This document shows positions 2,286 to 45,376 of a stretch of 64,000 bases of DNA, piece by piece. This DNA is from Eledone cirrhosa. Its lineage: Eukaryota. Each line of letters begins with the position of its first letter. The first letter of the stretch is position 1. The stretch spans positions 200,384,001 through 200,448,000 of the forward strand of contig OZ024742.1 in NCBI GenBank assembly GCA_964016885.1, written 5' to 3'. The position numbers and the translations under genes were made by a program. The notes below the pieces were generated by a model that had not been told where the DNA came from, did not search any database, and saw only the letters and a list, made by a program, of their open reading frames with translations.

Positions 2286-2705
2286 TAAATGAGTAATGTA
2301 GACAAAAACAAAAATGGAGTCAGTTTTGTCTGAGTTACACTGTAATACTTCATGCAGGGAAAACCCTGAAGGATCACCATGAAGGATCACCATGGATTAA
2401 ACGGAAATCTAACATTTCTTTCGAGGTTGGTTTGCGCATGAGCGAAACGGCGAGGACCAGCAACACTATTGGTCTCTAAATCTTGAATAAAATGAAAACC
2501 TTATTCACAAAGATTAGCGGCAGCTTCTATTTTTATATACCCCCACCACACACATACACGCATATATGTATATATACATATATATATATATAATGTGTGT
2601 GTGTGAGTGCGTATGTATGTATGTATGTATGTATGTATGTATAGAGGTATTTTCGAATATTACTTCCATTGGGCTTTTTAGTTTATTATATGTGTGTGTG
2701 TGTGA

Positions 2706-2780
2706 ATGCGCTTGGCTTAGTGGTTAGAGAGTTGGATTTAGAATTATGAGGTTGTGAGTTCGATTCCTGGTCCGGGAGAT
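2706..2780 (+). mobile_element. tRNA-derived SINE family 2 head (Pol III A/B boxes)
   Basis: A box TGGCTTAGTGG, B box GAGTTCGATTCC; homologous to 47900-48020 and 31090-31258. Confidence 0.75.
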
Positions 2781-4939
2781 GAGGACTGAACCACCTAATG
2801 GAGGAGAAGAAGATCAGGTGCGACGTGTTAGGGCTGTGCGAGACCCGCCAGAAGAAGGAGGCGAGTTCGCGATGGCAAGATGAATGGGCTTCGGGGGTCG
2901 CTTCTTGCCAGTTCATATCGTCACGGATTGGTGTACTGAACGTGAACCTCTCAGGGAAGGCCACCCTCAAGATCGTCCAGACCTACGCTCCCACAAGTGC
3001 CGGCGACGACGGTGGGGTGGAAGAATTCTATCGCCAGCGAGACAAAGTGCTAGCTGTGAAGTCCACTTACACCGTCGTGATGGGAGACTTCGGCGCAAAG
3101 GTCGGACAGAGACGGCAAGGGGAAGAGTGTGTCGGAATATTCGGCCTAGGAGAGTGAAATGAGAGAGGAGAGCGTCTGGTCACCATGGCGGAGGCGAGAC
3201 GACTCTACATCGGAAACAGTCTATTCAGGACGAAGAAGGAGAAGAGATGGACCTGGGTATCGCCAAATTCTGAGCACCGAAACGAGATCGACTACATCTT
3301 GGTCAACAAGCGACGCATACTGCAGGACGTCTCCGTCATAACGCCATTCAACACTGACAGTGATCATCGTCTGGTGAGGGCGGGGGTCGTCATCGACCGG
3401 ACGGGGGAGAAGAGGGCGCTGCATTTGGCGTCGAGGGGAGAGCGCGTCCGGGTCTTCGGCGGGGCGCAGCTGCGGGAAGCCATTGTGCAGGAGGGGTGGC
3501 GTCAGGGAGACGGCGTGGACGCTGGCTACGACTCACTGATAAGGAAACTTGAGGAGGGCTAAGGGTGTGTACCTGAGCGAGCGGAAGGGAAGAGTCTCGG
3601 AGGAAACTATGAAGTTGCTTGAGAAGAGGACACCTGAAGATCACCTCGAATATTCCCTTCTCACCAGAGTGATACGTCAACAACTGAAGAGAGACTTCGA
3701 GGCATACCGGATGGAGAAGCTCCTGAAGGCCGCAAAGGAAAAGAAGAGCCTCAAGAAATGCGAGAGGGACATGACAGTGTACAGATCGGAGGTGACGACC
3801 CTGGAAAACACGGCTGGAATACCGGTCAGCGACAAGAGTGAGGTGGAAAGGGTTTGCGAAGACTTCTACACCAAGCTCTTCAAGTATGCCGGGAATGTGC
3901 AGCCGTTGCCGTCACTCCAACAGGAGGAGAATGTGCCACCCATCCTTGTCGGTGAGGTCGAAAGAGCCGTCGGCTTGATGAAAAGCGGAAAGGCGCCAGG
4001 GAAAGACGGCATAACATCGGAGGTGTTGAAGTCAGGCGGAGAGCAGCTCTGGAAAATCCTCGCCGAGCGATTCACACACTATCTGAGCGAGGGAAGAGTG
4101 CCCTCTCAGTGGAGGGAGTCGAGTGCCATCCTGCTATACAGGAAGGGCGATGGGGAAGGTCTGAAGAACTGCCGACCCATACGCCTGCTGTCTCACGTGT
4201 ACAAGCTGTTCACGAGGATAGTCCTGAACAGGTTGTCACGTCATCTGGGCGGACAGCGACCGGGGGAGCGGCCGCTTCTGGAGGGGCTACAGCACGGTGG
4301 ACCACATATTTACTCTGACACAACTGCTTGAGTGAGCAAAAGAGTACAAGATACCTCTTTGCATCGCGTTCGTAGACTACGAGAAGGCCTTCGACAGCGT
4401 CGAAATCAACGCAGTGCTGAACTCGCTGCAGAGGTGAGGAGTCGAGGCACAATACGTTCAACTGCTCAGGGAGGCGAGTTCCGGATGCACCACTGACATA
4501 GCTCTGCTGTCATTACCCGTACGAGTGCCGGTCGAGAAGGGAGTGAAGCAAGGAGATACGATTTCTTCAAAACTTTTCACCGCGTGTCTCGAGCAGATCA
4601 TCAGAGGCATTGACTGGCAAGGCGGTGTCAACATCAACGGCGAGATACTTACCCACCTCCGTTTCGCTGATGACATCGTACTCATCGTTGAAACCACGGA
4701 TCAGCTTCAGACCATGCTGACGGAGCTCGACATCAAAAGCTCTGCAGTGGGCCCCAAGATGAACCGCATGAAAACGAAGTTCATGCGGTCCGACAACGTA
4801 CCAACAGGTCGAATGGTGGTTGGCGGGGATGAGATAGAGGAGGTGGAGGAATACCTCTACCTAGGACAAGAAGTGAACATGCGCTGAGACATTGAGAGGG
4901 AGATCTCGCGGAGAGTAAGGGCCGGATGGAAGGCGTTCA

Positions 4940-4947
<8 letters not shown>
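2781..4947 (+). mobile_element. RTE-clade LINE copy 1 (APE endonuclease + RT), inactive, truncated at both ends
   Basis: EN motifs DVLGLCETR, YAPTS, MGDF(G)AKVG, NEIDYIL, SDHRLV; RT motifs KAPGKDG, FVDYEKAFDSV, GVKQGDTIS, LRFADDIVL; stops and frameshifts; colinear with 42709-44829. Confidence 0.95.
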
Positions 4948-4975
<28 letters not shown>

Positions 4976-4981
4976 CATATA

Positions 4982-5572
4982 TGGTGGCTACCAACTCGTT
5001 TTCGAGTACGGCCACTACTTTATATCCATGTAGGAGAACCCCTACCGATGCGCTGAACAAGTGTGATTTTTTAGTCCAGCCAGCGACTTGAAAACTCTGG
5101 TACAAACACTACACTTGTGACAATTATTGACACATAGTGCTGGGCCCATGGCACCATGTGATGACAAGTGCAGAGAGATCTCCAGATATAAAGCAATGCC
5201 TGTGCCGTGAAGCTTTTATAGTGAGCAAAGGCACTGCAGAAAGCCAGTATCACTCTCTTAACCAAGATGATATTTACTAAAAAGAAGAATAAGTCAACAT
5301 CATTGGATACCATCAGGGTTGCAGGTGTTATATCAGAGTTTTCCTTCTCCTAGAATTCTGCCTTGACAAAGGCTAAGGGGTCATCTCTCCAGGTGATTTT
5401 GGATGGCCATTGACTCTTAAGAGCTCCTTTGCCCTTTGACAGGTTTTGTTTTCAGTCCTGCAGGATGTCCAAAGTCACCCTCCTCACCAAGAAACCTTGG
5501 TGGGGTTGCCAGTTTAGTTGCCAGCGACCCGACCATGGGACAGGTTGTACTGGGATACATGTTACCAGTAGT
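4982..5572 (-). repeat. Dispersed ~0.55 kb repeat, unclassified (inverse copy at 22446-22957)
   Basis: Near-identical reverse complement of 22446-22957; both copies flanked by microsatellite. Confidence 0.85.
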
Positions 5573-5994: not shown

Positions 5995-6980
5995 AAGTAT
6001 GTACACGTACATACATATATGTATACAGACGTACAGTAGTATGCATATATATATACATACATGCACACATATATATATATGTACGTATGGATTCACCGAA
6101 CATTTATTATAATGCTCGGTGTGTTTGTAAACAAACATCCCCCGCCGATTAACTCACTCGATATGCAAATTAGGCTGCTCAGTCGTTAATATGCATAAGG
6201 AAAGTATATACTTTCAGACGTTCAACCATCTGGCAGGAAGGTATACGTTGCTGACGATAGCTAATAAGCTTAAAACTATTACAGCGTTCCTTTGTCAGTG
6301 TTGAACAAATGAGCAACGATGGTTGCTAGACACTGTACGGCTTAATTCGGGATGTTTGTTTACAAACACACCGAGCATTATAATAAATGTTCGGTGAATC
6401 CATACGTACATATATATATGTGTGCATGTATGTATATATGTATACATACTACCGTACGTCTGTATACATATATGTATGTACGTGTATATACTTATATTTA
6501 AGTAACAGCCGTACTAAGAGTGAGAAATGAAATTTCGTTTCATTTTTTTCCGTTTATCGTTTTCGGTACCCCGGCCGATCAACTCACACGATATGCAAAT
6601 TAGGCTGCTCGGCCGTTAATATGCATAAGGAAAGTATATACTTTCAGACGTTCAACCATCTGGCAGGAAGGTATACGTTGCTGACGATAGCTAATAAGCT
6701 TGAAACTATTACATCGTTCCTTTGTCAGTGTTGAACAAATGAGCAACGATGGTTGCTAGACACTGTACGGCTTAATTCGGGATGTTTGTTTACAAACACA
6801 CCGAGCATTATAATAAATGTTCGGTGAATCCATACGTACATATATATATGTGTGCATGTATGTATATATGTATACATACTACTGTACGTCTGTATACATA
6901 TATGTATGTACGTGTACATACTTATATTTAAGTAACAGCCGTACTAAGAGTGATAAATGAAATTTCGTTTCATTTTTTCC

Positions 6981-6985
<5 letters not shown>
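5995..6985 (+). mobile_element. Hammerhead-bearing small element: inverted part plus two tandem 430-bp units
   Basis: 6141-6560 repeated at 6571-6985; 5995-6140 is the inverse of ~6350-6495; cores CTGACGA at 6251 and 6681 with stem II AGCT/AGCT, then AAAA (unit 1) or GAAA (unit 2). Confidence 0.75.
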
Positions 6986-7022
<37 letters not shown>

Positions 7023-8379: not shown

Positions 8380-11300
8380 CTAACATTAAAGCCCGGCGTT
8401 GCTCGGGGTCAGTAAGTTACCAAAGTTAGGTTGCACCACCCATTTTATGGCAGCACTTTTTTGTCTGCCAGGCACTGGTTGAATGAATTGCAAACCTGCA
8501 CTGCCGAAGCAGGAGCTGCGCCAGCAGTGACAATTGTAGTTTCGCCTATTGATATTATCTCTGTGCAAAGAAGTGTTCAAATTTATTGTTTCACAGTACT
8601 TGCGCAACACGCGCATAGACGATGCCAGCCGAACAACAGAGCTGCGATGGAGTTGTTCTGCATGACATCTTTTAACGGGGGAGGGGTGGATTGAGGGAAC
8701 CACAAACAGGGGCCTGAAAACATTGTCGAATTATGACAACCAAAAAAGAGGAAGAGGGGTCATTGTATGGTTGGTGCATCATGTACGTCGGACGTAGAAG
8801 ATGAGCCTGCTGCTGTGCCGACGGAGGGAGTGAAATAGAGTTGAGCGGAGGCCAGGTGTTGGTGAAGTGGGAAGTAATTGCAGGGAACCGCCTAAAAATG
8901 TAAATCCCGTCATTAAAGCATTGTTGACCCTTTGAGAGTCGTACGGAGGTGAAATACTAACCTGTCCACGGTCCTCCGAGGCCCACCAAACGGGGGTTGG
9001 TGAGGAGCAACAGCTGATATTTGGGTAGGGTCGGAGTTGCAATGAAGCTTTGTAACGCCGCGAGAATCAGCCTTTGTACGGCAGATGGTGGGGAGTGTCC
9101 AGTGCACTGCAGTGAAGGTTAACCCTAGAAAGTACTCACGAAAAGGCAAAAAATAAAAAAATAAAAAAGTTATAAAATTAGGAATCGAGGTAATCCTATA
9201 AAACCTCCTTGTACACAATGTTTTTTGTTTTTCCTTGCGGAACGAACGCGAAATCATCACTCTTGCTGCCGACACGCGAGCAGCCAACGTAAAGCTGACC
9301 GTGAGAGAAACACGGCTCCCCTAAATGTATTCCCGCGTCAGACAGTGTTTGCTCCTGCGCTTTGTTAATTGACATTGCGAAGCATGGCCTGACCGGGAAC
9401 TGGGACCTCCGAAATGTGAAAGGTAGGTCTGCTCCTGATGGGAAAAGATGCATCCTCGGTATGAACACAACCTTGCCCCGACCGCACCTTGTGATTATCG
9501 TGGCCTCAATCAGATTGGGAGCTAAGGACTTAACGACCAAACGTGTGCCATTGCATTGTTTCGGCGGAACCAAATTTCGAATGAGCATTATAGGGGCACC
9601 AACTTTAAGTTTCAAAATGTGTGGGGGTAATCCGGGGGGCTCAAAGGAATTTAGTACCTCTATTGGATAGTTGATGACGTCCTCGGGGTCAGGAGTTCTA
9701 TCGATAGACTTATATACGTAGCCATCCCCAGGAATGAGTTTTAGCATTTGATCATTAATATGGTTAACAGTTTTATTCCTCGGGGCCAGAATAGCCCTTT
9801 GGACAAGCCAATCCATATTCTGATAATTTGCTTGGAGATCTGGGAACACTGCATCCCTGAGATCAGAAGGCGTACTAACAACAGTACAAAATGAGTCGAT
9901 GGCAATATTAACCTTTTCATCCCCGGGCGTTTTGCCTTCGCCAAGTGCAAGGAGGGTGTGAGAAAATGCTGCTGATGCGATATCACCTCGCATATGAGCA
10001 CACATGTTAGTGTGAAGTTTCAGAGTCTTCACCAGGGGCCACAATGCGGATGACTTAAGACACGCACGTACTGCATCGGCTCTAGTCCCCTTGGGAATAA
10101 CGGGAAGCGTTTGCCTGAAGTCCCCTGAAAGAAGAAGTGTTATGCCTCCCATGGGAGCCGTAGAGTCTTTGATGTCTCTCAGAGTTCTATCGAGCGCCTC
10201 AAGAGCACCTCTGTAGGCCATCGTACATTCGTCCCAAACTATAAGCTTGCATCGTCTGAGCACTTCTGCCTGATCGGAGCTCTTACTGATGTTGCAAATG
10301 GGTGTCTCAGTCTTCGCTAAGTCAAGCGGGAGCTTGAAATAGGAGTGAGCTGTCCTGCCGCCCGGCAACAAAGTAGCCCCAATTCCAGATGAGGCAACAG
10401 CTAAGGCAATTAATTTGGTGACAAAAGTTTTCTCAGTCCCCCCAGCTTTGCCCCGGACAGAATTAACAACGGAGTTGTAAGCGAATTTCTGTTCTGGAAG
10501 GAGCTTTGGCTCATTCTCCACTATGTACTGGGCAAGCTTGTCAACATTATAAGATGTCTCACGCAGCAAATCCTAAGACAGAGTGTTGCGCCTTCCCGGT
10601 TTGTTGAAGGTAGGCCATACACAGCCAACGCACTACCGCCCATATCGAGAACAGTATCTTCGATTTCAAGCAGCTCCCTGTTGTAAATGAAGTCCCTGTA
10701 CGCGACCTCCACCGATGGGTTTAGCAACTGAGCGTGACGCAGGAAATCTTCAGACATGTAATCTTTGTAGCTAAGCCATAAAGAGGCCGGATCACCCAAG
10801 TCGTACCATAGGAGTAGAATAGCGAAAAGCGATCTTAGTCTTTTAGGAGATTTCAACAAAACGCCCTCTGCCATAGTGGCGCCCCATTGTGAATCATCCT
10901 CCAAAAGGCCACGCCTAAAGCAGGCTTCCCGGAAAGTATCACATAATTCACCGTCAACAGTTCTTATGTCTCGAAAGCTTTGTGGGCCAAAAACCTCACG
11001 GAGGAGAAGGCGCAGGTGAAAACACTCATGCTGGTTGGGAGGTACAGTGTACACTCTTCCTAGACAACTGTCAAACTTGACACCAGGATGTCCTTCAACA
11101 TCCTGACCTGACTTCCTACGCACCCAAGTGTTGTTTGACCACACGTAGTAGGACGGGACCTGAGGGTATGAAAGTGTTTTTGCAAATGTGTCAAGTTGGC
11201 AAAGCGTAAAAAAACCAGTCAAAGTTGTTTCTTTTGGATTGGCCGCCAAATGAGCAGCAATCTGTTCAGTAAAGTAAGCCCGCTGGCCGTTTATCAAATG

Positions 11301-14300
11301 AACCGCTGCTGATATATCGACCTGCCAAGTACTCTGAGACCTCGTCCCTGCTATTGTCGTTTTGAAGGCCGAACATGGCAGCGTCGGAACCCTTGTTAGC
11401 ATATTTACACATGTACTTTATCGACTTCACTGAATGACAGAACTCCACATTTATATGAGCGTTGAACGTTTTCATCAGAAATGGACAGTACGGGACCACC
11501 CACCTATTATCAACTTGATGACCCCGTAACGTCATAGTGAATCCACCGTTCTCAGGCCGCCTTCGTCTGTACAGTGGGTATCCGTCGCCGCCGGTCTGGG
11601 TCTCCTCAACAAACCTCTTTGGGTATCGTTTAGTGCACACATGGTCCTTGTGGCATGAAGAGAACTCTTGAAAACCGGGACCGCACGGACTGTGCACCAT
11701 GTGTGCCTTCACAATGTCGTACAGCTGCCGGTCAACAACGGGGTCCGGTATTTCCGCTGCGATGACGTCATCTAGAATGTAGGGTCTATTTTGGTGACCA
11801 ACCAAACCAAAATGTGCGCGTGTGGCAACCCTCTCTTTTGCCACTCAACAGTATACATGTGGCACCTAACAGGCCCGAAAACCTTCCCTCTTTTTATTAG
11901 ATCAATTAGCTTAGCCAACTTCTGCCTGAAAACCCTGGCAATAATATCATGCCGATGGCAGTGCTGCTGCCATGGGATAAGTTCCCGCGTAACCTCAACC
12001 CACTTGGGGTTACACGTAAACGTGATGAATAAATCGGGGCGCCCATAATGCCGAACGAACGTCATAGCGTCCTGTGTTCGCTCGTGCATGTGCCCCCCCC
12101 CCGTATATGTTGAGGGGAGAATGCACATTTTGCTGATGTTCCTGGGGTCAGTGTCATTCCTGATGCCGTCACGCAAATGGATGTAGGAGTCTGAGCGCAG
12201 CTGCTTCTGATTCAATTTTATGAAGCACAGTCTCTCCGACTCCATCTTTGCAGTCATGTCAACTGCAAACTGGTGAAACAGTTCCCGTGACCTGTGCAGG
12301 GTGCTGAAATCGTTAGGCCTCGTCATGAAGCGGTAGGAGTATAAAGCCATGCATGAAACAGTTTTAGATGTCGCAGTAGTGGGCTCGTTTGGTTTGCGCT
12401 GAGGAATGCCGAAATGGTACCCGTCTTCTCCGTATGCAAAAAGAAGGGGATACTGCAGGGCGTCGTATGAACGATGCGTCTCATTAATACGTCGAAGACC
12501 ACTGTCACGACTTTGAAGAACTATGTCTCGCTTATTGTGCTGTTCACCATGGATAACTACGGCCACTTCATTGCACGAAGGAGCGTTATAACAGCGTGTG
12601 TGCTCCCCAGAAGGTCTTTTGTCAGCATCGATGACAATGGTGAAGTTTGGTGAAGGATTTGTTTCCAATGCGTATTTGAAGCTGCGAATATAACTGTTGT
12701 GCATGTTTTGAAGACCGAGCAGCACGTCCCTTTCAAAAGTGTCAGCGTCAGTGTTTGCAGGTGTTGGAATAACGCCGAACCGTGAATCAACTTGCCTACT
12801 GTAGTTAGAAATGAAGTAAATTTGAAGAAACGAAGGCTTGCAATTTTGTAGTGGCTGGAGCGACCCAATAAGATGGTACACCTGCCCCTGGACCTTGAAA
12901 GTAGGCATCCAACCACTTTCTCTGACAACGTTAGCCCCGAAAAAGTCATTTGAAACGCACAATTGTACTTCCTGATGAGTTGAAGGAATTTGGATGACCT
13001 TGAGGTAGAACCAGTAAGTAGTTCCTTCAAAGGCTCTGGTGGTTCACCAAGAGGGGGCAAGCTGACCTTACCGTTTAAGCAGCACAATGCAGGTGGCTCC
13101 CCAGCCCACTTTTTAGCATTGCAGAATTTGCAATTGAAGCGCATTTCCTCTATATTTATGTCGGCACGCATCGAGTAGTTAACGTTGGGCTCATACTTGA
13201 AAGCCCGTAGGTGCCAGTATGGGCTGTTGGGGCTCGTCACACCGCGGGCAGCTTCTTGTCGTCGACTGTTCCGCTCCAACGTAGAATGTTGCTCCTGTGG
13301 GTCGTGGGAAGCTCTCGCAGCAGTAGCAGAAGCCACCCTTACAATCCTAATGGAGCGCCCGTCTGCATCTTCAGAAGCCATGGAAGCAGTCATAGCCGCA
13401 GCGTTCCTAGCATGGCGATTCGTCCGCTGTTCCAAACCTTCCAAAGCCCTGGAAGCAGCAGTAGCAGCAGCGTTTCTATTCAGGCGAGTCGACCTTTGTT
13501 CCGGGCCCTCTGAAGCCCTGGAAGTAGCAGTAGAAGCCTTTTATTTGGAATGACGTATCGCCCGCTCTGAATCGCACATCGCAGCACGTCTCGAGGCGTC
13601 GTATGAAGCCAACTTGGCTAGGCGTGCGGTGCGTTGTTGAAAACTTTCAGCAGCTCTGCATTCCGCTGAACGGAAGGCGCTCTGTGAAAGTCTTAAAGCA
13701 GTTTCCTCGGAGGCTCGTTTGCTGTAATCGCCCTCTGCGCCGCCGCTGACGCGGTATGGCGACCGAGGCGACTTCTCTTTTTAGGTGGCATTTTATGTGA
13801 AAAAGAAAGGGTGAAAGTTACTTCTACAGCAAAATTGCCTTTGAAAGTATAATGCTGAAAACTGTCTGCGTTCCGCAGGGGAAAAATGGGAGAACGAACG
13901 GCAAATAAATAACTCAGTTTGTTGAAAGCGCGCTTCTGTCAGCAATTTGAAGTTGTTTGGCCAAAAATCCCGATGTGGTTTTTTTTTTCACTCAATAAAC
14001 GTGTAAATATGTTATACACAAAATGTAATTGTGTGTGAGTTGAATGATAGATGTTTTAAAAAAAGATTTTAAGCGTATAAGCGTAATAAGAGATTGTTGA
14101 ATACATTTCTGTTGCTTTTGAATAATTGTAGTTTGGTATAAAATGTAAGCGTCATGTATTTAACGTTTGTCTCTGTCTCTCACTCTCTAGCTCACTCCTT
14201 TATTTTTTTCTCTCTCTCTCTCTAAAGGAAATTAGTAAGGAGTGGGTAGGTTCCAGCATGTATTTTTTTTTTTTTCGAATTTTAAGGCGTTAGGCAGAGT

Positions 14301-21475: not shown

Positions 21476-21896
21476 GCTGCTCAACTTGAATTCCTTAAGG
21501 CAGGAACCGTTGGACAAATCTGGCAACGCGGCAAGATTTTCAAATATGTTATGTCTATGTTAATAATGGTTTCTTTCTTACTTGGGAACTGAGCCAAATG
21601 TTGTGAAGGTTGGATGAGTGTGTGTGTGTGTGTTGGTGCGAGGTGGTCTTGTGATACACTAAATTAAGGAACACCCCCCCCCCCCCCCAATATATTACTG
21701 CTACTAGGTGGCATCGAATCACAGCAAGATGTAAGGTAAAACCACCACGAGATTATAGTAAAGCCACACACGGATCTATATGTAGATACATACATACTTG
21801 CACACACACACACGTATGTATGTATGTATGTATGTATGTATGTATGTATGTATGTATGTATGTATGTATGTATGTATGTATGTATGTATGTATGTA

Positions 21897-22365
21897 TGGA
21901 GAGCTCCAAATGGGAAAAAGGAACGCGAGCAAACCCAAGATGCGTTTTAAGGACTGCATCAAGGGGGCGCTTAAGAAAAGTAACATCCCTTGTGAGCACT
22001 GGGAAGCATGCGCTAGCGACCGAACGCATTGGAGGAAAGCAGTGGCTAGTGGTAAGAGTCTATTTGAGGAAACAAGAAGAAGGCACGCGACACTAAAAAG
22101 AGATGTCCGGAAAGGAATCCATGTTGGCCTTCCCGAAGGCACTGACAGACGGCCTGACCTGACATGTGAGACCTGTAATAGGGTTTGTCTGAGCATGGCA
22201 GGTCTAAAGAGTCACCTGAGAGTGCACAATGACAGGGAAGCAGGCACCTTTGGAGCTATAAGTGTTCATCAGTCGACGACATGTAATGTTTGTGGAAGGG
22301 TATGCAGGTCGAGTAGTGATCTCACACGACACCTTGGGTCTCATGGTACCATGGGCCCAGCACTA
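21897..22365 (+). mobile_element. RTE LINE 3' fragment with two C2H2 zinc fingers
   Basis: YGEL..GKR...KPK.RFKD, WEACASDR..WR, CETCNRVC.S..GL.SHLRVH, CNVCGRVC.S...L.RHL.SH. Confidence 0.8.
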
Positions 22366-22445
22366 TACATACATGTATGTATGTATGTATGTATGTATGT
22401 ATGTATGTATGTATGTATGTATGTATGTATGTATGTATGTATGTA

Positions 22446-22957
22446 TGGTTTCTTGGTGAGGAGGGTGACTTTGGACATCCTAAAGGACTAAAACAAAACC
22501 TGTCAAAGTCAAAGCGCAAAGGAGCTCAATGGCCATCCAAAATCACCGGTAGAGATGACCCCTTAGCCTTTGTCAAGGCAGAATTCTAGGAGAAGGAAAA
22601 CTCTGATATAACACCTGCAACCCTGATGGTATCCAATGATGTTGACTTGTTATTCTTTTTGGTAAATATCATCTTGGTTAAGGGAGTGGGACTGGCTTTG
22701 TGCAGTGCCTTTGCTCACTATAAAAGCTTCACGGCACAGGCATTGCTTTATATCTGGAGATCTATCTGCAATTGTCGTCACATGGTGCCATGGGCCCAGC
22801 ACTATGTGTCAATAATTGTCACAAGTGTAGTGTTTGTACCAGAGTTTTCAAGTCGCTGGCTGGACTAAAAAATCACACTCGTTCAGCGCATCGGTGGGGG
22901 TTCTCCTACATGGATATAAAGTAGTGGCCGTACTCGAAAACGAGTTGGCAGCCACCA
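22446..22957 (+). repeat. Dispersed ~0.5 kb repeat, unclassified (inverse of 4982-5500)
   Basis: Near identity to the 4982-5572 element. Confidence 0.85.
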
Positions 22958-30017: not shown

Positions 30018-30897
30018 CAGGGTGTTCGGGATAAATTTGACAGTTTCATCAGGAAAAAGAAAAAGTGCTTGGTATCTACAAAATTTATTTGGTTTAAAAT
30101 TACACTATTGTCAAAGAGTTTTACTCAAAATAACCTCCATTAGCGTCTATTACAGCCTCAATCCGGGCCCGGAACCTAGAGCAAGCTGATTTTACACTTT
30201 GCCTGGGAAGGCCCTCAAAAACTACTTTAATTCTGTCGATTAACTGGGCTTTTGTAGTACTGGCACGGCGATTGGTGTCTTTCTCTACAGCGCCCCATAC
30301 ATAATAGTCCATCGGGTTAAGATCAGGGGAGTTCGGAGGCCAAACATTGGGACTGGTGTAGTGGTAAAACTTGGCTGACAACCATTTTTGACTTTTCCCC
30401 GAGGTGTGGCAGGGGGCCGAATCCAGCTGCCATACATACGGCCTATTATTGGCTACCCTTGTTATCCAGGGCTTCAATTCATGCGACAAAGACCGAATTC
30501 CGATGCCAGGGTCCTCCAACACTTTTTTCTGCAGATTTTCGAGGAATTCTGCTGTGCGAGTGCAATCAGATCTTCTGTTATGTTTCTTTCTTCTAGCCAC
30601 AGCCTCGCAGTCTCCATTGCAATTCTCCAGTTCATGCCGGATTGTTTTTACAGTGTTCAGGGAGCATTGAGCAGCGACCATAATCTCCTTATTTTGATGG
30701 CCGGCGCGAATCATCATAATACAAGTTATTCTCTTCCATGATTCAGGTGGCTCCCAGTCATCCATTCTCGTTGTCATCACATATATGAATGAAGGAGGGT
30801 TTAAACTTTCAAATAAAGCCTAGTGGGCATGAATGAATTTAAAACATCTGAAAAAACAACCAAATATTCTTCTGTCAAATTTATCCCGAACACCATG
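30018..30897 (-). mobile_element. Tc1/mariner DD37D (maT) transposon, internally deleted
   Basis: TIRs CAGGGTGTTCGGGATAAATTTGACAG / CTGTCAAATTTATCCCGAACACCATG with TA flanks; ORF 30121-30780 with WQLDSAPCH...WPPNSPDLNPMD, 37 residues between the last two Asp. Confidence 0.92.
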
Positions 30898-35897: not shown

Positions 35898-38640
35898 TAT
35901 AACGAAGGAAATGTGGCAAGGAACCAGATGGACCATAACGCACCAAAGTACTCAATACTTAGGGTAGTAGAGTGGGTAATAGGAACAAGTATGACCCCGA
36001 TGGCAGAGCTCAAGCCGTTTCGACGGCTAATTCTGGACTAAATAAGAATTTTTAGCCTGGTAAATAAATAGCCGAACTTCTCAGGAGGTAATTCCATATA
36101 TGGGAAGATAGTAATAGTCAAAAGGATTGGCAAAAAATTTGTTGTAAAGACACACAAATCTTTGACCAATTCTTTTGACTATTACTATCTTCCCATATAT
36201 GGAATTACCCCCTGAGAAGTTCGGCTATTTATTTACCAGGCTAAAAATTCTTATTTAGTCCAGAATTAGCCGTCGAAACGGCTTGAGCTCTGCCATCGGG
36301 GTCATACTTGTTCCTATTACCCACTCTACTACCCTAAGTATTGAATACTTTTGTGCGTTATGATCCATCTGGTTCCTTACCACATTTCCTTCGTTATCTA
36401 GCTCCTATTTCCGTAGTAGAGCACTTTCCGACCCTACCACGCCGTATCCAGACTTTTCCGCTAAGCTCAAGTTCTTTCACCCGCACCATGCGAAAACACA
36501 ACATCGACTTCTCCACCAAGAACATCCCAGTTCCACCGAGAAAACTTTACCTTCGGATGCTCACACAAAAAATCGACCCCTTTGCGAAAAGACTAAGATG
36601 GAGAACTTTTTTCTACGACCGATATTGCGACAATCCGGACTTCGATACCAAGGAGAGATTCGGATTTAATACCTACAAATCTCCCCCTCCGAACCCTATG
36701 CTCTCACCCTTCGAGAATGACCTTTTCCAACTGGTCAAGAGCATTAAATTCAAACCCAGACACCACAGATTCCTACAAAAACTCCGTAGCAAATTAACAG
36801 AGTATGAAAACACCAACGACGTCATGGTGCACTCGGATAAAACTGGTAACCTCTACTTCGTCAACCCCGACAGATACCACACACTGATCAGGAGCAGCCT
36901 AAACTCCACCTATAAAAAGGCTAACCATTCAAGTATCGAGGACATAAATCGAGATGGACAACAAATTACCTCCAGCCTCGGGGTCGCCGACCGCACTGAA
37001 CCCCTAGACCCACGGACTCCCTACTTCACACTGAAGGACCACAAATCCGACTTCGACCGTAAACCATCCACCAGGTTTATAAACCCAATAAAGTCCGACA
37101 TAGGGAGAATCAGTAAAAAAAATCCTAGACCGCGTTATACCAAAAGTTAAGCAAAACGCGAGACTTAGCCTATGGGTCAGCACCCAGGAGGGTAATCTCA
37201 TGGTTCAGCAATATGGAGGACAAACGAGACACAAAATTCATCCAGTTTGACATAGAGAGTTACTATGCTTCAATTACCTTACCACTCCTTGGACTTTGCC
37301 GAAACACTCACGTCCATCACCGACCAGGAAAGAAATATCATCCTCCACGCCAGGAAGACAGTCCTACTTTTCGACAACTCCAAATGGATAAAGAGAGCTC
37401 CCGACTCCCCCTTCGACGTCAGTATGGGCGCGACGGATTCGGCTGAGGTCACAGATCTTATAGGATTATTCCTACTATTTAAATTCACCGAAATGTTTCC
37501 TGCATTCGGCGGTGGATTGTACCGTGATGATGGGCTCCTTACCCTGAAAGGGTACAACCCCAGTAGTACAGACTGGGTCCGTAAACAATTAATCAGCTTC
37601 TTCCGCGACTGGGGATTTAAAATAACCCTACAAACGTCCCTAACCCGAGTAAACTTCCTGGAGATTACCCTTAACCTCGATAATGATCTGTACTACCCAT
37701 ACAGGAAACCAAACGACAACCTGCATTACATCCACCGCCGGTCGAACCATCCTAGAAACATCACCAATAACCTGGTTAAAAACATCTCCCTCCGCATATC
37801 TCGTTTGTCCGCTAATGAGCAGATATTCGATGAACATGCGCCTTATTACAACCAGGCCCTCAAGCGGAGTGGCTTCCGGGAGGAAATATCCTATTATCCA
37901 GCTTCCATTAGCGGAACCAGCAGGCGACACCGCCGCTCACGCAACGTAACGTGGTCCAATCCTCCTCACAATGCCGAGGTGACAACACCTATCGGGAAAA
38001 TCTTCTTTAGGCTCATCGAAAAACACTCCCCACTACAACACCGCTACCACAACATAATCAACAAAAACGCCATCAAACTCTCCTACAGCACCACACCTAA
38101 CTTTGCACAAAACATCCTCTCCTCTAACAACAAAAAACTCAACCCATATGGAAGAAATAACCTAGACAGCAGTGGAGAGCCGACCAGGAGGTGTAACTGT
38201 CCTGATACATCCCTTTGCCGCCTCAACAACAGATGCCGAGATCGTAATGTGATCTACCAGTGCAACGTGAGGACAGACATCTCCAACAAAGCTTATATAG
38301 GATTAACCGCTTGTGACTTCAAGACCCGGCTCTACCTACACGGACATACTTTCCGAAACCCGGCCCGGCGTCACGCCACTAAACTTTCGGGCTACATCTG
38401 GGACCGCAAAGATAATAATATAACCTACAATCTTACTTGGAGCTTACTGTCCAGAGCTAACACTTACACGGGAGGATGCCGTCCGTGTAACTTATGCTCG
38501 GAGGAAACATTACAAATTCTGTTTTCGAAGAACCAACTCCTAAACAAGAAAGACGAACTGGTAACTGCATGCAAACACAGATTGCGTAGGACTTACCTCG
38601 CCCTCAAACCCCATAATGACTCGGGGAGGGGGTAGACAAG
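35898..38640 (+). mobile_element. Penelope-like retroelement (RT + C-terminal GIY-YIG endonuclease) with 5' inverted pseudo-LTR
   Basis: ~250-bp-arm palindrome 35898-36397 containing a hammerhead-like motif (36204-36305), directly upstream of the ORF. Confidence 0.9.
36488..38635 (+). pseudogene. Penelope-like polyprotein, about 3 frameshifts
   Basis: FSTKNIPVP, SDKTGNLY, YFTLKDHK, FIQFDIESYY.SI, VSMGATDSAEV, YRDDGL, VNFLEITL, YIH..SNHP, CNC...C.L...C, VIY....YIGLT..FK.R..H, C.LC.EE, LLNK..EL. Confidence 0.92.
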
Positions 38641-42529: not shown

Positions 42530-42708
42530 AGTGGCGCAGCGGTGACTCTGGCTGTCTGATAGCTATGGTAGCGGGACTCAATGTTCTGGCAGGTTTTACC
42601 ATGCTACACAGGTATCAGACTATTGGTCCTAGAGATGATTGATCATCTTCTAGAGTTCAAAAGCTAGCTAAACTGAAGAGGTACTGGCCAGCCCGCCCAG
42701 CCAGTGGG

Positions 42709-45333
42709 GTGGCCGTGAGACTCAGGAAAGCAGAGGGTGCCAGATCGGTCGGAGGTATAGGGTTCATCGTAAACAAGGAATGGGCTTCGAAGGTCGCTTC
42801 TTGCCAGTTCATATCGTCACGGATTGGTGTACTGAACGTGAACCTCTCAGGGAAGGCCACCCTCAAGATCGTCCAGACCTACTCTCCCACAAGTGCCGGC
42901 GACGACGGTGGGGTGGAAGAATTCTATCGCCAGCGAGACAAAGTGCTAGCTGTGAAGTCTACTTACACCGTCGTGATGGGAGACTTCGGCGCAAAGGTCG
43001 GACAGGGACGGCAAGGGGAAGAGTATGTCGGAATATTCGGCCTAGGAGAGTGAAATGAGAGAGGAGAGCCTCTGGTCACCATGGCGGAGGCGAGACGACT
43101 CTACATGGGAAACAGCCTATTCAGGAAGAAGGAGAAGAGATGGATCTGGGTATCGCCAAATTCTGAGCACCGAAACGAGATCGACTACATCCTGGTCAAC
43201 AAGCGACGCATACTGCAGGACGTCTCCGTCATAACGCCATTCAGCACTGGCGGCGATCATCGTCTGGTGAGGGCGGGGGTCGTCATCGACCGGACGAGGG
43301 AGAAGAAGGTGCTGCATTTGGCGCCGAAGGGAGAATGCGTCCGGGTCTTCAACGAGGCGCAGCTACAGGAAGCCACCATCCAGGAAAACTGGCGTCAAGG
43401 AGACGGCATAGACGCTGACTACGACTCACTGATAAGGAAACTGAAGGAGTGCTTGAGGAAGGCTAAGGGTGTGTGCCCGAGGGAGCGGAAGGGAAGAGTC
43501 TCGGAGGAAACTATGAAGTTGCTTGAGAAGAGGAAGAATAGGAAGAGGACACCTGAAGATCACCTAGAATATTCACTTCTCACCAGAGTGATACGTCAAC
43601 AACTAAAGAGAGACTTCGAGGCATACCGGATAGAGAAGCTCCTGAAGGCCGCAGAATTGCGAGAAGGACATGGCAATTTACAGATCGGAGGTGACGGCCC
43701 TGAAGAACACAACTGGAGTACCAGTCAGCGACAAGAGTGAGGTGTAAAAAGTTTGCGAAGACTTCTACCCCAAGCTCTTCAAGTCTGCCGGGAATGTGCA
43801 ACCATTGCCGTCACTCCAACAGGAGGAGAATGTGCCACCCATCCTTGTCGGTGAGGTCGAAAGAGCCGTCGGCTTGATGAAAAGCGGAAAGGCGCCAGGG
43901 AAAGACGGCATAACATCGGAGGTGTTGAAGTCAGGCGGAGAGCAGCTCTGGAAAATCCTCGCCGAGTGATTCACACACTATCTGGACGAGGGAAGAATAC
44001 CCTCGCAGTGGAAAGAGTCGAATACCAAGAAGGGCGATAGAGAAGATCTGAAGAACTACCAACCCATATGCCTGCTGTCTCACGTGTACAAACTGTTCAC
44101 GAAGATAATCCTGAACAGGTTATCACGTCATCTGGACAAACAGCAACCAAGAGAGCAAGCCGGCTTCCGGAAAAACTACAGCACGATGGACCACATATTT
44201 ACTCTGACACAACTGCTTGAGTGAGCGAAAGAGTACAAAATGCCTCTTTGCGTCGCGTTCGTAGACTACGAGAAGGCCTTCGACAGCGTTGAAATCAACG
44301 CAGTGCTGAACTTGCTGCAGAGGCAAGGTGTCGAGGCACAATACGTTCAACTGCTCAAGGAGGCGAATTCCGGATGCACCACCGACATAGCTCTGCTGTC
44401 ATCACCCGTACGAGTGCCGGTCGAGAAGGGAGTGAAGCAAGGAGATACGATCTCTCCAAAACTTTTCACCGCATGTCTCGAGCAGATCATCAGAGGCATT
44501 GACTGGCAAGGCGGTGTCAACATCAACGGCGAGATACTTACCCACCTCTGTTTCGCTGATGACATCGTACTCATCGCTGAAACCACGGATCAGCTTCAGA
44601 CCATGCTGACGGAGCTCGACATCAAAAGCTCTGCAGTAGGTCTCAAAATGAACCGCATGAAAACGAAGTTCATGCGGTCCGACAACGTACCAACAGGTCG
44701 AATGGTGGTTGGCGGTTACGAAATAAAGGAGGTGGAGGAATACGTCTACCTAGGACAAGAAGTGAACATGCGCCGAAACATTGAGAGGGAGATCTCGCGG
44801 AGAGAAAGGGCCGGATGGAAGGCGTTCAACGGCATAAGGGATGTGTCTAAGGGGAGGTTGGACAAGACCACCCGCGCCAACCTCTTCAATAGCACAGTTT
44901 TACCTGCAATGTTATATGGCAGTGAAACTTGGGCTACAACGAAGAGAGAAGAGCAGAGGCAGGTAACAGCCCAAAGAGCCACGGAGAGATCAATGCTAGG
45001 AATCTCGTTGAGAGAGCACATCAGGAGCGAAGTCATCAGACAGAAGTTCGGCGTGATGGACGTCATCACGGAATATATGCGTAGCAAGTTCAGATGGGCT
45101 GGACACGTCGCCCGGTTCACCGATAATCGGTGGACCCGCGCAGTTGCCGAGTGGTACCCGTGCGAGCGGAAACGACCACTCGGAAGGCCTCCACGAAGGT
45201 GGAGTTACGATTTTAGAAATATGATTGGGACTACATGGATGAGGAAAGCACGATCCAGAGAGGAATGGACGGCGTGCTGTGACCAGCGGCGCCGAATGGA
45301 CGCCCGACAGACTGGTCGGTCAAGGTGATCAAG

Positions 45334-45337
<4 letters not shown>
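42709..45337 (+). mobile_element. RTE-clade LINE copy 2, 5'-truncated, intact 3' end
   Basis: EN GGIGFIV, RIGVL, EIDYIL; RT and C-terminus DYEKAFDS, GVKQGD, FADD, YGSETW, RWAGHVAR, KRPLGRPP.RW; 3' tandem tail (TCAAGGTGA)2. Confidence 0.95.

Positions 45338-45376
<39 letters not shown>

What the first reader, a model, noticed from the sequence alone, without database searches (positions are those of the whole stretch)
3404..4300. Clustered A-to-G hypermutation in an RTE copy: a possible genomic fossil of ADAR hyper-editing
Seen: RTE copy 1 and copy 2 (42709-45337) are essentially identical over ~3910-4065 and differ only sparsely over 4310-4940. Two blocks are very different. By my hand count, 3404-3560 has about 18 A(copy 2)-to-G(copy 1) differences and no G-to-A, and 4085-4300 has about 30 A-to-G against 1 G-to-A. 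Conserved RTE motifs give the direction: copy 2 keeps WKES, KKGD, DLKNY, FTKII, QQPREQAGFR and STMDH, while copy 1 reads WRES, RKGD, GLKNC, FTRIV, GGQRPGER and STVDH. Established: ADAR deaminates clusters of A to I in dsRNA, RT reads I as G, and coleoid cephalopods edit RNA extensively. Inference: a hyper-edited sense transcript was retrotransposed, fixing RNA edits in DNA. ADAR would then act as a heritable mutator or restriction factor of LINEs, analogous to APOBEC G-to-A editing of retroelements.
Basis: partly seen in the sequence, partly recalled or inferred. Interest (0 to 1): 0.9.

Follow-up and report, generated by a model that had tools for sequence, protein, structure and literature searches.

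The report
RNA-editing scar in a LINE copy
One dead jumping-gene copy carries two dense, one-stranded bursts of A-to-G changes (40 of 103 adenosines) that about 200 sister copies lack, most likely because the RNA-editing enzyme ADAR altered its RNA before the RNA was copied back into inherited DNA.

Summary
Against 197 other non-redundant family copies, copy 1 (2782-4947) carries 60 derived A>G versus 2 T>C (background 1% per A; P about 5e-39). Forty sit in two blocks, 3404-3525 (16 of 34 As) and 4087-4297 (24 of 69), with no A>C or A>T. About a quarter of the copy-1/copy-2 differences are really G>A in copy 2. No G-rich sister subfamily was found, and one public-run contig reproduces 141 nt of block 2 exactly (possibly the assembly's own sample). 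Two other copies (L248, L081) show weaker sense-strand A>G clusters. Best reading (0.7): ADAR-edited sense RNA, reverse transcribed and fixed in the germline. Weak points: the neighbour motif fits only partly (5' A/T favoured; 5' G not depleted in block 2; 3' A lowest), no double-stranded partner was found, no RNA data were available, and copy 1 lacks its 3' end. 'Restriction factor' is not shown: such copies are 1-3 of 196. Nine literature searches found no germline LINE precedent; avian retroviruses and APOBEC-edited LTR elements are the closest. This scan noted the same phenomenon many times on other DNA, including this genome (unchecked AI notes).

The parts
2700..2781 (+). Head of a tRNA-like SINE, joined directly to the 5' end of RTE copy 1; the rest of the SINE is absent
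   Evidence: Similar heads elsewhere in the window and loci; reads of other SINE copies continue differently behind 2781 (table 7); 'tRNA-like' is read by eye from A/B-box-like motifs
2782..4947 (+). RTE-type LINE copy 1: 5'-truncated, about 57-nt internal deletion near 2885, lacks the last about 540 nt; 60 derived A>G, 2 T>C, 12 G>A, 13 C>T, 10 transversions
3002..3384 (+). Rare A>G alleles shared with copy 2 (3002, 3012, 3015, 3092, 3093, 3383), plus shared non-A>G alleles and a shared stop at 3155
3404..3525 (+). A>G block 1: 16 of 34 family-A sites are G; no other derived change at well-conserved columns
3906..4067 (+). Stretch identical between copies 1 and 2; holds two A>G alleles (3926, 3929) shared with L081 and L092
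4087..4297 (+). A>G block 2: 24 of 69 family-A sites are G; start of the RT domain
   Evidence: 4186-4326 reproduced with 0 differences by a contig of run X1
4948..4982 (+). (TA)n microsatellite at the 3' break of copy 1; no element tail and no target-site duplication recognisable
42625..45338 (+). RTE-type LINE copy 2: 5' UTR start, about 300-nt deletion, body and 3' tail with a short tandem repeat followed by (TA)n; ordinary spectrum (11 A>G, 7 T>C, 25 G>A, 17 C>T)

Best explanation
Copy 1 is a dead RTE-type LINE insertion whose sense strand carries clustered A-to-G changes, likely made by ADAR deaminating adenosines in a double-stranded stretch of the element's RNA before that RNA was reverse transcribed and fixed in the germline. 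Shown: the Gs are derived, sense-strand only, clustered, pure (no A>C or A>T), blind to codon position, and old (1.8% ordinary decay on top). Inferred: ADAR as the enzyme; a duplex formed with an inverted RTE piece in the same read-through transcript or with antisense RNA (partner not found); and copying by the family's own RT. The event is rare in this family (1 strong and 2 weak of 196 copies), so it acts as an occasional heritable mutator, not a demonstrated restriction system.
For: 60 A>G vs 2 T>C in 2082 informative sites; the next-highest 200-nt cluster among 196 copies is 9, and T>C clusters never exceed 4. P=5e-39 against a background of 1.01%. Blocks edited at 47% and 35% of As with 0 A>C or A>T. 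5' A/T favoured over C/G: 23/40 vs 17/63, p=0.003; pooled with L248, OR 3.5, p=4e-5, and GAA 1/44. This agrees with the ADAR 5' preference U~A>C=G and U>A>C>G (PMC3113232, passages and section 9). Edits fall evenly on codon positions (12/34, 19/47, 9/22) and 33 of 40 are non-synonymous, so they did not pass through selection in an active lineage. No close sister of block 2 among 40 scored of 180 candidates (best other 86%), nor of 2990-3560 among 40 of 164. Run X1 holds a 141-nt contig identical to 4186-4326, depth 9.5, spanning 12 edited sites (a 13th listed there, 4284, is a polymorphic column). Independent sense-strand A>G clusters in L248 (22 vs 2 T>C, P=4e-8) and L081 (window p=2e-6 before correction). 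Four repeat pairs elsewhere in the window, one directly behind copy 1, show no A>G excess. The genome holds A_deamin-domain genes at four places. 68 of 198 copies have pieces on both strands, a possible source of dsRNA.
Against: 5' G is not depleted in block 2 (8/25 edited), and for both blocks together p=0.15, whereas strong upstream-G depletion is reported across Metazoa (PMC5625713, passages). 3' A is the least edited class here (10/72 pooled), while that paper reports 3' A enrichment for the invertebrate cluster. No dsRNA partner: the two blocks do not pair better than random window pairs (rank 69 of 111); an unedited copy shows no unusual folding (z -0.02 and -0.51) and edited As are no more paired than unedited ones; there is no antisense RTE piece in the window, 40 kb upstream or 20 kb downstream. 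Sense/antisense duplexes are rarely edited according to PMC13445718 (abstract). Copy 1 has no 3' tail or TSD, so insertion by TPRT is not directly visible. ADAR1 restricts human L1 without editing it (PMC5224506, passages). Run X1 may be the assembly's own sample, and block 1 is not among the contigs listed.
Confidence: 0.7

Rival explanations
1. A burst of polymerase errors during insertion: the RT, or second-strand synthesis, put dG opposite template T (or dC opposite rA) under a nucleotide-pool imbalance, giving sense-strand A>G without any deaminase.
For: Also predicts a strand-specific, single-type burst confined to retroelements. Needs no dsRNA partner, and none was found. Tolerates edited GA sites (8/25 in block 2) and a mild 3' G lean (OR 1.7, p=0.09). 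dNTP-imbalance hypermutagenesis by RT is recalled knowledge, not read here.
Against: 35-47% of As in sharp blocks, with a 160-nt stretch between them free of private changes, is far above known RT error rates (recalled). 5' A/T preference and GAA 1/44 fit ADAR better. No matching bursts of other types: G>A max 10 per 200 nt on a 3% CpG-driven background, T>C max 4.
Confidence: 0.12
2. The edits entered an already inserted copy at the DNA level: either by gene conversion from cDNA of an edited family RNA (still ADAR, but patching two tracts), or by an error-prone repair polymerase such as Pol eta (A>G at WA).
For: Copy 1 is a mosaic: its 5' part shares rare alleles with copy 2 and its 3' part with L092, and it lacks the deletions that copy 2 and L092 share, one of them inside block 2. 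Two separate blocks fit conversion tracts. A 5' A/T preference also fits Pol eta (recalled).
Against: Pol eta would also give A>T and A>C (0 in the blocks), and at a much lower density (recalled). All three enriched copies are hit on the sense strand. Template switching during insertion explains the mosaic equally well in a family where 68 of 198 copies are rearranged.
Confidence: 0.1
3. The blocks come from recombination with a G-rich RTE subfamily.
For: Only 210 loci were examined; a 3' motif alone has 243 exact matches, and the searches score only the best 40 candidates.
Against: No copy above 86% to block 2. Most edited alleles are carried by 0-2 other copies. 33 of 40 changes are non-synonymous, including conserved RT motifs. 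The blocks carry almost no other differences from the family majority.
Confidence: 0.04
4. Assembly or base-calling artefact.
For: The assembly's read type is unknown to me; block 1 is not verified in reads; run X1 may be the same sample.
Against: An exact 141-nt contig at single-copy-like depth spans 12 edited sites and the 2-nt deletion. Flanking repeats show no such skew. The errors would have to follow the element's sense strand and one substitution type.
Confidence: 0.04

Closest known systems
ADAR-linked A-to-G hyperediting of avian retroviruses RAV-1 (Felder 1994) and avian leukosis virus (Hajjar and Linial 1995), as cited in PMC8586724 (passages; originals not read, PMC189466 not held)
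   Same: Clustered sense-strand A>G in a reverse-transcribing element, read out as DNA and attributed to ADAR acting on the RNA
   Different: Exogenous LTR retroviruses in culture or infection; here an endogenous non-LTR element fixed in a germline genome and aged by about 1.8% decay
APOBEC DNA-edited LTR retroelements in vertebrate genomes (Knisbacher and Levanon, PMC4866542, passages; Zaranek et al., PMC2873906, passages)
   Same: A deaminase burst fossilised in individual genomic copies, detected as strand-biased, one-directional clusters polarised by the family majority
   Different: G>A from C>U on cDNA in vertebrates; that screen selected G>A clusters in LTR elements and found invertebrates at noise level. 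Here it is A>G on the RNA strand of a LINE, and A>G cannot create stop codons from sense codons
ADAR hyper-editing of repeat-derived dsRNA (Porath et al., PMC5625713, passages; coleoid repeat editing, Albertin et al., PMC9068888, passages)
   Same: Dense A>G clusters in repeats; octopus has the strongest hyper-editing signal in that survey
   Different: Seen in RNA only, with strong upstream-G depletion and 3' A enrichment in invertebrates; here it is in DNA with a weaker, partly different motif
ADAR1 restriction of human LINE-1 (Orecchini et al., PMC5224506, passages)
   Same: ADAR acting on a LINE
   Different: Editing-independent; no edits found in more than 2.5 kb of L1 RNA

Membership tests
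RTE-clade non-LTR retrotransposon | Single ORF with AP endonuclease followed by reverse transcriptase | tested here: met
   Natural copy L023: Exo_endo_phos/_2 and RVT_1 in one frame, broken by stops. The best full-length homologues are about 890-1000 aa with the same domains.
RTE-clade non-LTR retrotransposon | About 3-kb element, short UTRs, 3' end of short tandem repeats rather than poly(A) | tested here: met
   Element about 3.1 kb; copy 2 ends in a short tandem repeat followed by (TA)n. The feature list itself is recalled.
RTE-clade non-LTR retrotransposon | RT phylogeny groups with named RTE elements | not tested
No tree built; no listed homologue is named RTE by its source.
ADAR hyper-edited RNA fixed as DNA | Clustered, one-directional A>G on the transcribed strand, without other substitution types | tested here: met
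ADAR hyper-edited RNA fixed as DNA | 5' neighbour preference U/A over C/G with strong G depletion | tested here: inconclusive
   A/T over C/G p=0.003; 5' G vs rest p=0.017 in block 1, 1.0 in block 2, 0.15 for both, 0.024 pooled with L248
ADAR hyper-edited RNA fixed as DNA | A double-stranded RNA substrate covering the edited stretch | tested here: inconclusive
   No intrinsic hairpin, no antisense piece near copy 1, and no examined hairpin locus matches both blocks. The source locus is unknown, so its structure could not be tested.
ADAR hyper-edited RNA fixed as DNA | Edited reads of the family in RNA-seq of the species | not testable with these tools
   No run on record as RNA was offered
ADAR hyper-edited RNA fixed as DNA | Host encodes ADAR | tested here: inconclusive
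   PF02137 matches over cut-off at four places; not sorted into ADAR, ADAD or ADAT
ADAR hyper-edited RNA fixed as DNA | Absent from DNA transposons | tested here: inconclusive
   0 of 30 Helitron copies with a pure cluster (A>G 0.50%, T>C 0.47%; the clusters of 7 and 6 are mixed-type misaligned patches). With 1-3 of 196 expected, 30 top-scoring of 763 candidates has no power.
TPRT insertion | Intact 3' tail and target-site duplication | tested here: not met
   Copy 1 ends about 540 nt short of the family 3' end at a (TA)n run; 161 of 198 copies reach the 3' end. Later deletion is the likely cause but is not shown.
APOBEC-edited retroelement | Sense-strand G>A clusters | tested here: not met
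   Copy 1 has 12 G>A, max 3 per 200 nt

The most novel reading that the evidence does not exclude
ADAR edits are not only fixed once but inherited along a retrotransposon lineage. An earlier editing round in a source element left A>G alleles shared by copy 1, copy 2 and L092 (8 of 11 and 4 of 7 rare shared alleles are A>G, against about 9% of family changes). A second round then hyper-edited the RNA that became copy 1. RNA editing would be a serial, heritable mutator of LINE lineages in an animal germline.
Probability: 0.3. Interest if true: 0.78.

Novelty: new variant of a known kind. Interest (0 to 1): 0.6.

Why it matters
If true, normally transient RNA edits are written into heritable DNA through LINE retrotransposition in an invertebrate germline. 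This is the RNA-side counterpart of APOBEC-edited retroelements. Such copies are a dated fossil record of germline ADAR activity and sequence preference. They show which retrotransposon RNAs were double-stranded when mobilised. They make testable, from genomes alone, the standing suggestion that repeat editing in coleoids opposes transposons (PMC9068888, passages). They also matter practically: genomic A>G copies can be mistaken for RNA hyper-editing when reads are mapped to repeats. In this family the effect is rare, so the quantitative impact looks small.

Tried and rejected
(1) CpG decay in copy 2 as the whole explanation: rejected; it accounts for at most 21 of 74 differences. (2) A family-wide low-level editing signal: A>G exceeds T>C overall (0.99% vs 0.70%, OR 1.42), but singletons are symmetric (219 observed vs 204 expected) and show no ADAR neighbour bias. 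Not claimed; the excess lies in shared alleles and is unexplained. (3) Apparent T>C clusters in L039 and L102 were in the microsatellite tail. Those in L005 and L241 are 5 sites in 300 nt, mixed with other types, and in L005 all five are shared alleles. Not counted. (4) Block 1 pairing with block 2, or an intrinsic hairpin: no support. (5) An antisense RTE piece near copy 1: none in the window or in 60 kb of flank. (6) L248's own inverted duplication as its editing substrate: its arms are not enriched; the cluster lies in the 5' part. (7) The maT/mariner at 1400-2300 as a control: only 77-85% matches of up to about 190 nt, unusable, loci not analysed. (8) No RNA holder listed. The RAD-seq run X8 gave almost no depth over the blocks. 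(9) Rows dropped before counts: 6 flank loci; 259 loci merged to 210 places; 12 near-identical duplicates removed; 2 copies under 150 informative sites; columns under 85% agreement, gap-adjacent columns and HSP ends. (10) PMC5974252, PMC4189041, PMC4384741 and PMC9115989 (passages) gave no usable numbers or precedent. (11) A look-up of earlier notes by sequence found nothing.

Full report
Observation. The window holds two same-strand copies of one LINE, 2882-4947 and 42778-44836, 90.7% alike. A natural family member carries an AP endonuclease and an RT in one frame, the best full-length homologues are single proteins of about 890-1000 aa with those domains, and copy 2 ends in a short tandem repeat. 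My calls did not test the host's identity.

Direction. With 29 other copies as outgroup, 53 of 74 A/G differences are derived Gs in copy 1; 21 are G>A in copy 2 or polymorphic columns. I then gathered 259 loci from three DNA searches and three 19-letter motif searches. They merged to 210 places, 198 non-redundant, 196 with at least 150 informative sites. The family is larger: the 3' motif alone has 243 matches and only the first 100 places are listed, so the sample leans to the big contigs. Copy 1 has 60 A>G, 2 T>C, 12 G>A, 13 C>T and 10 transversions. Its densest 200 nt holds 22 A>G; the next copies hold 9, 6 and 6, and T>C never exceeds 4. Background is 1.01% per A, so 60 of 609 has P=5e-39. 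The edits cluster (0 of 2000 permutations reach 22) in 3404-3525 (16 of 34 As) and 4087-4297 (24 of 69), with no A>C or A>T. Outside the blocks A>G is still raised (19 of 488). Ordinary decay on copy 1 is 1.78% against a family median of 2.87% among 127 long copies, so it is an old, inherited insertion.

Not a subfamily, probably not an artefact. Searching with block 2 gave no other place above 86% (40 scored of 180 candidates); searching with 2990-3560 gave copy 2 at 93% as the best other (40 of 164). The edits ignore codon position and 33 of 40 change amino acids. In public data, run X1 holds a 141-nt contig at depth 9.5 that is identical to 4186-4326, spanning 12 edited sites. X1's type is not on record and it may be the assembly's own sample; only 8 records per run are listed, and none covers block 1, which stays unverified. 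Four other repeat pairs in the window, one directly behind copy 1, show no A>G skew.

Recurrence. L248 (G000:C7, 32.76 Mb) has 22 A>G vs 2 T>C in its 5' part (P=4e-8), 17 of them in 580 nt; L081 (C2, 230.06 Mb) has 11 in 410 nt. Both are sense-strand. L081 shares five A>G sites with copy 1, so it may not be independent. Thirty Helitron copies show symmetric A>G and T>C (0.50% and 0.47%) and no pure cluster, but this control has little power and was chosen by top score.

Neighbour motif. In copy 1's blocks, As after A or T are hit more often than As after C or G (23/40 vs 17/63, p=0.003). Pooled with L248: 5' A 26/71, T 8/27, G 17/118, C 6/57; 3' G 26/97, T 11/46, C 10/58, A 10/72; GAA 1/44 but GAG 10/43. 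This follows the in vitro ADAR order in outline (PMC3113232). But 5' G is clearly depleted only in block 1, and the 3' A preference reported for invertebrate hyper-edited reads (PMC5625713) is absent. The motif therefore supports ADAR moderately, not decisively.

Substrate. ADAR needs dsRNA. The two blocks do not pair with each other (rank 69 of 111 window pairs), an unedited copy folds like its shuffles, and there is no antisense RTE piece in the window or 60 kb of flank. Inverted pieces are common in the family (68 of 198 copies; 7 loci with overlapping inverted arms), so a read-through transcript from a rearranged source is plausible but unidentified. Simple sense/antisense duplexes are reported to be rarely edited (PMC13445718, abstract).

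Lineage. Copy 1 shares 11 rare alleles with copy 2 (8 A>G) and 7 with L092, 4.3 Mb away (4 A>G); copy 2 and L092 share two deletions that copy 1 lacks. About 9% of family changes are A>G. Either a common, already lightly edited source gave rise to all three with template switching, or gene conversion spread pieces of copy 1 to its neighbours. The data do not separate these. The shared stop at 3155 means editing need not be what killed this lineage.

Mechanism and rivals. Most likely (0.7) an RTE RNA was hyper-edited by ADAR over two duplex stretches, reverse transcribed with I read as G, inserted into a SINE, and later lost its 3' end. The editing enzyme, duplex and insertion route are inferred. 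Rivals are polymerase error under nucleotide imbalance (0.12), later patching by edited cDNA or an error-prone repair polymerase (0.10), an unseen subfamily (0.04) and artefact (0.04). The genome has adenosine-deaminase-domain genes at four places, not sorted by type.

Known kinds and novelty. The closest precedents are ADAR-linked A>G hyperediting of avian retroviruses (as cited in PMC8586724) and APOBEC G>A editing fossilised in vertebrate LTR elements (PMC4866542, PMC2873906). ADAR1 restricts human L1 without editing it (PMC5224506). Nine full-text searches listed no paper whose title or abstract start describes germline-fixed A>G-hyperedited LINE copies; subscription papers are mostly outside the library and supplements were not read, so this is not proof of absence. 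I rate it a new variant of a known kind. Earlier notes of this scan report the same pattern in CR1, L1, RTE, Penelope and SINE copies in this and other genomes. They are unchecked AI notes and are not counted as evidence.

Verdict. A real and striking feature with a likely but unproven ADAR origin. This example has a weaker motif than ideal and no identified duplex; its special interest is the possible inheritance of edited alleles among three related copies. Interest 0.6.

Noticed in passing
L248 (G000:C7:32762500-32767500), 516-1102: Second RTE copy with a sense-strand A>G cluster (17 of 170 As); it also carries a 674-nt inverted duplication whose arms are not edited
   Followed up: yes
L081/L167 (G000:C2:230.06 Mb), family positions 1403-1807: Weak A>G cluster (11 in 410 nt); five A>G sites shared with copy 1
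   Followed up: partly
L092/L168 (G000:C3:204.69 Mb): Copy with a 5' inversion and a 3' end displaced by about 1.9 kb; shares deletions with copy 2 and point alleles with copy 1 (three-way mosaic)
   Followed up: partly
family-wide, 198 copies: 68 copies have pieces on both strands, a high rate of internal inversion; shared (non-singleton) A>G alleles exceed mirrored T>C (603 vs 428 expected) while singletons do not
   Followed up: partly
G000:C20:3.5-5.2 Mb, C19:35-40 Mb, C27:13-15 Mb: The same RTE motif recurs every 100-200 kb on C20, and near-identical copies recur on C19 and C27: probably large tandem or segmental duplications
   Followed up: no
window 2700-2781: SINE head fused to the 5' end of copy 1 with the SINE body missing: insertion into a SINE plus later deletion, or a template-switch chimera
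   Followed up: partly
window 9196-13540 (-): Helitron (Helitron_like_N, PIF1, STPR repeats), a large family with 763 candidates and copies 96-98% alike
   Followed up: partly
L295, Helitron positions 1546-1597: About 50-nt patch where most bases read G (a run of C or G in the assembly): local replacement or assembly fault
   Followed up: no
window 21655-22491 (+) and 30121-30819 (-): C2H2 zinc-finger-like ORF; DDE_3 transposase fragment just under cut-off
   Followed up: no
window 6139-6986: About 430-nt direct tandem duplication, 97% alike
   Followed up: no
window 36338-38635 (+): Two long C-rich open frames (270 and 459 aa) without a Pfam match
   Followed up: no
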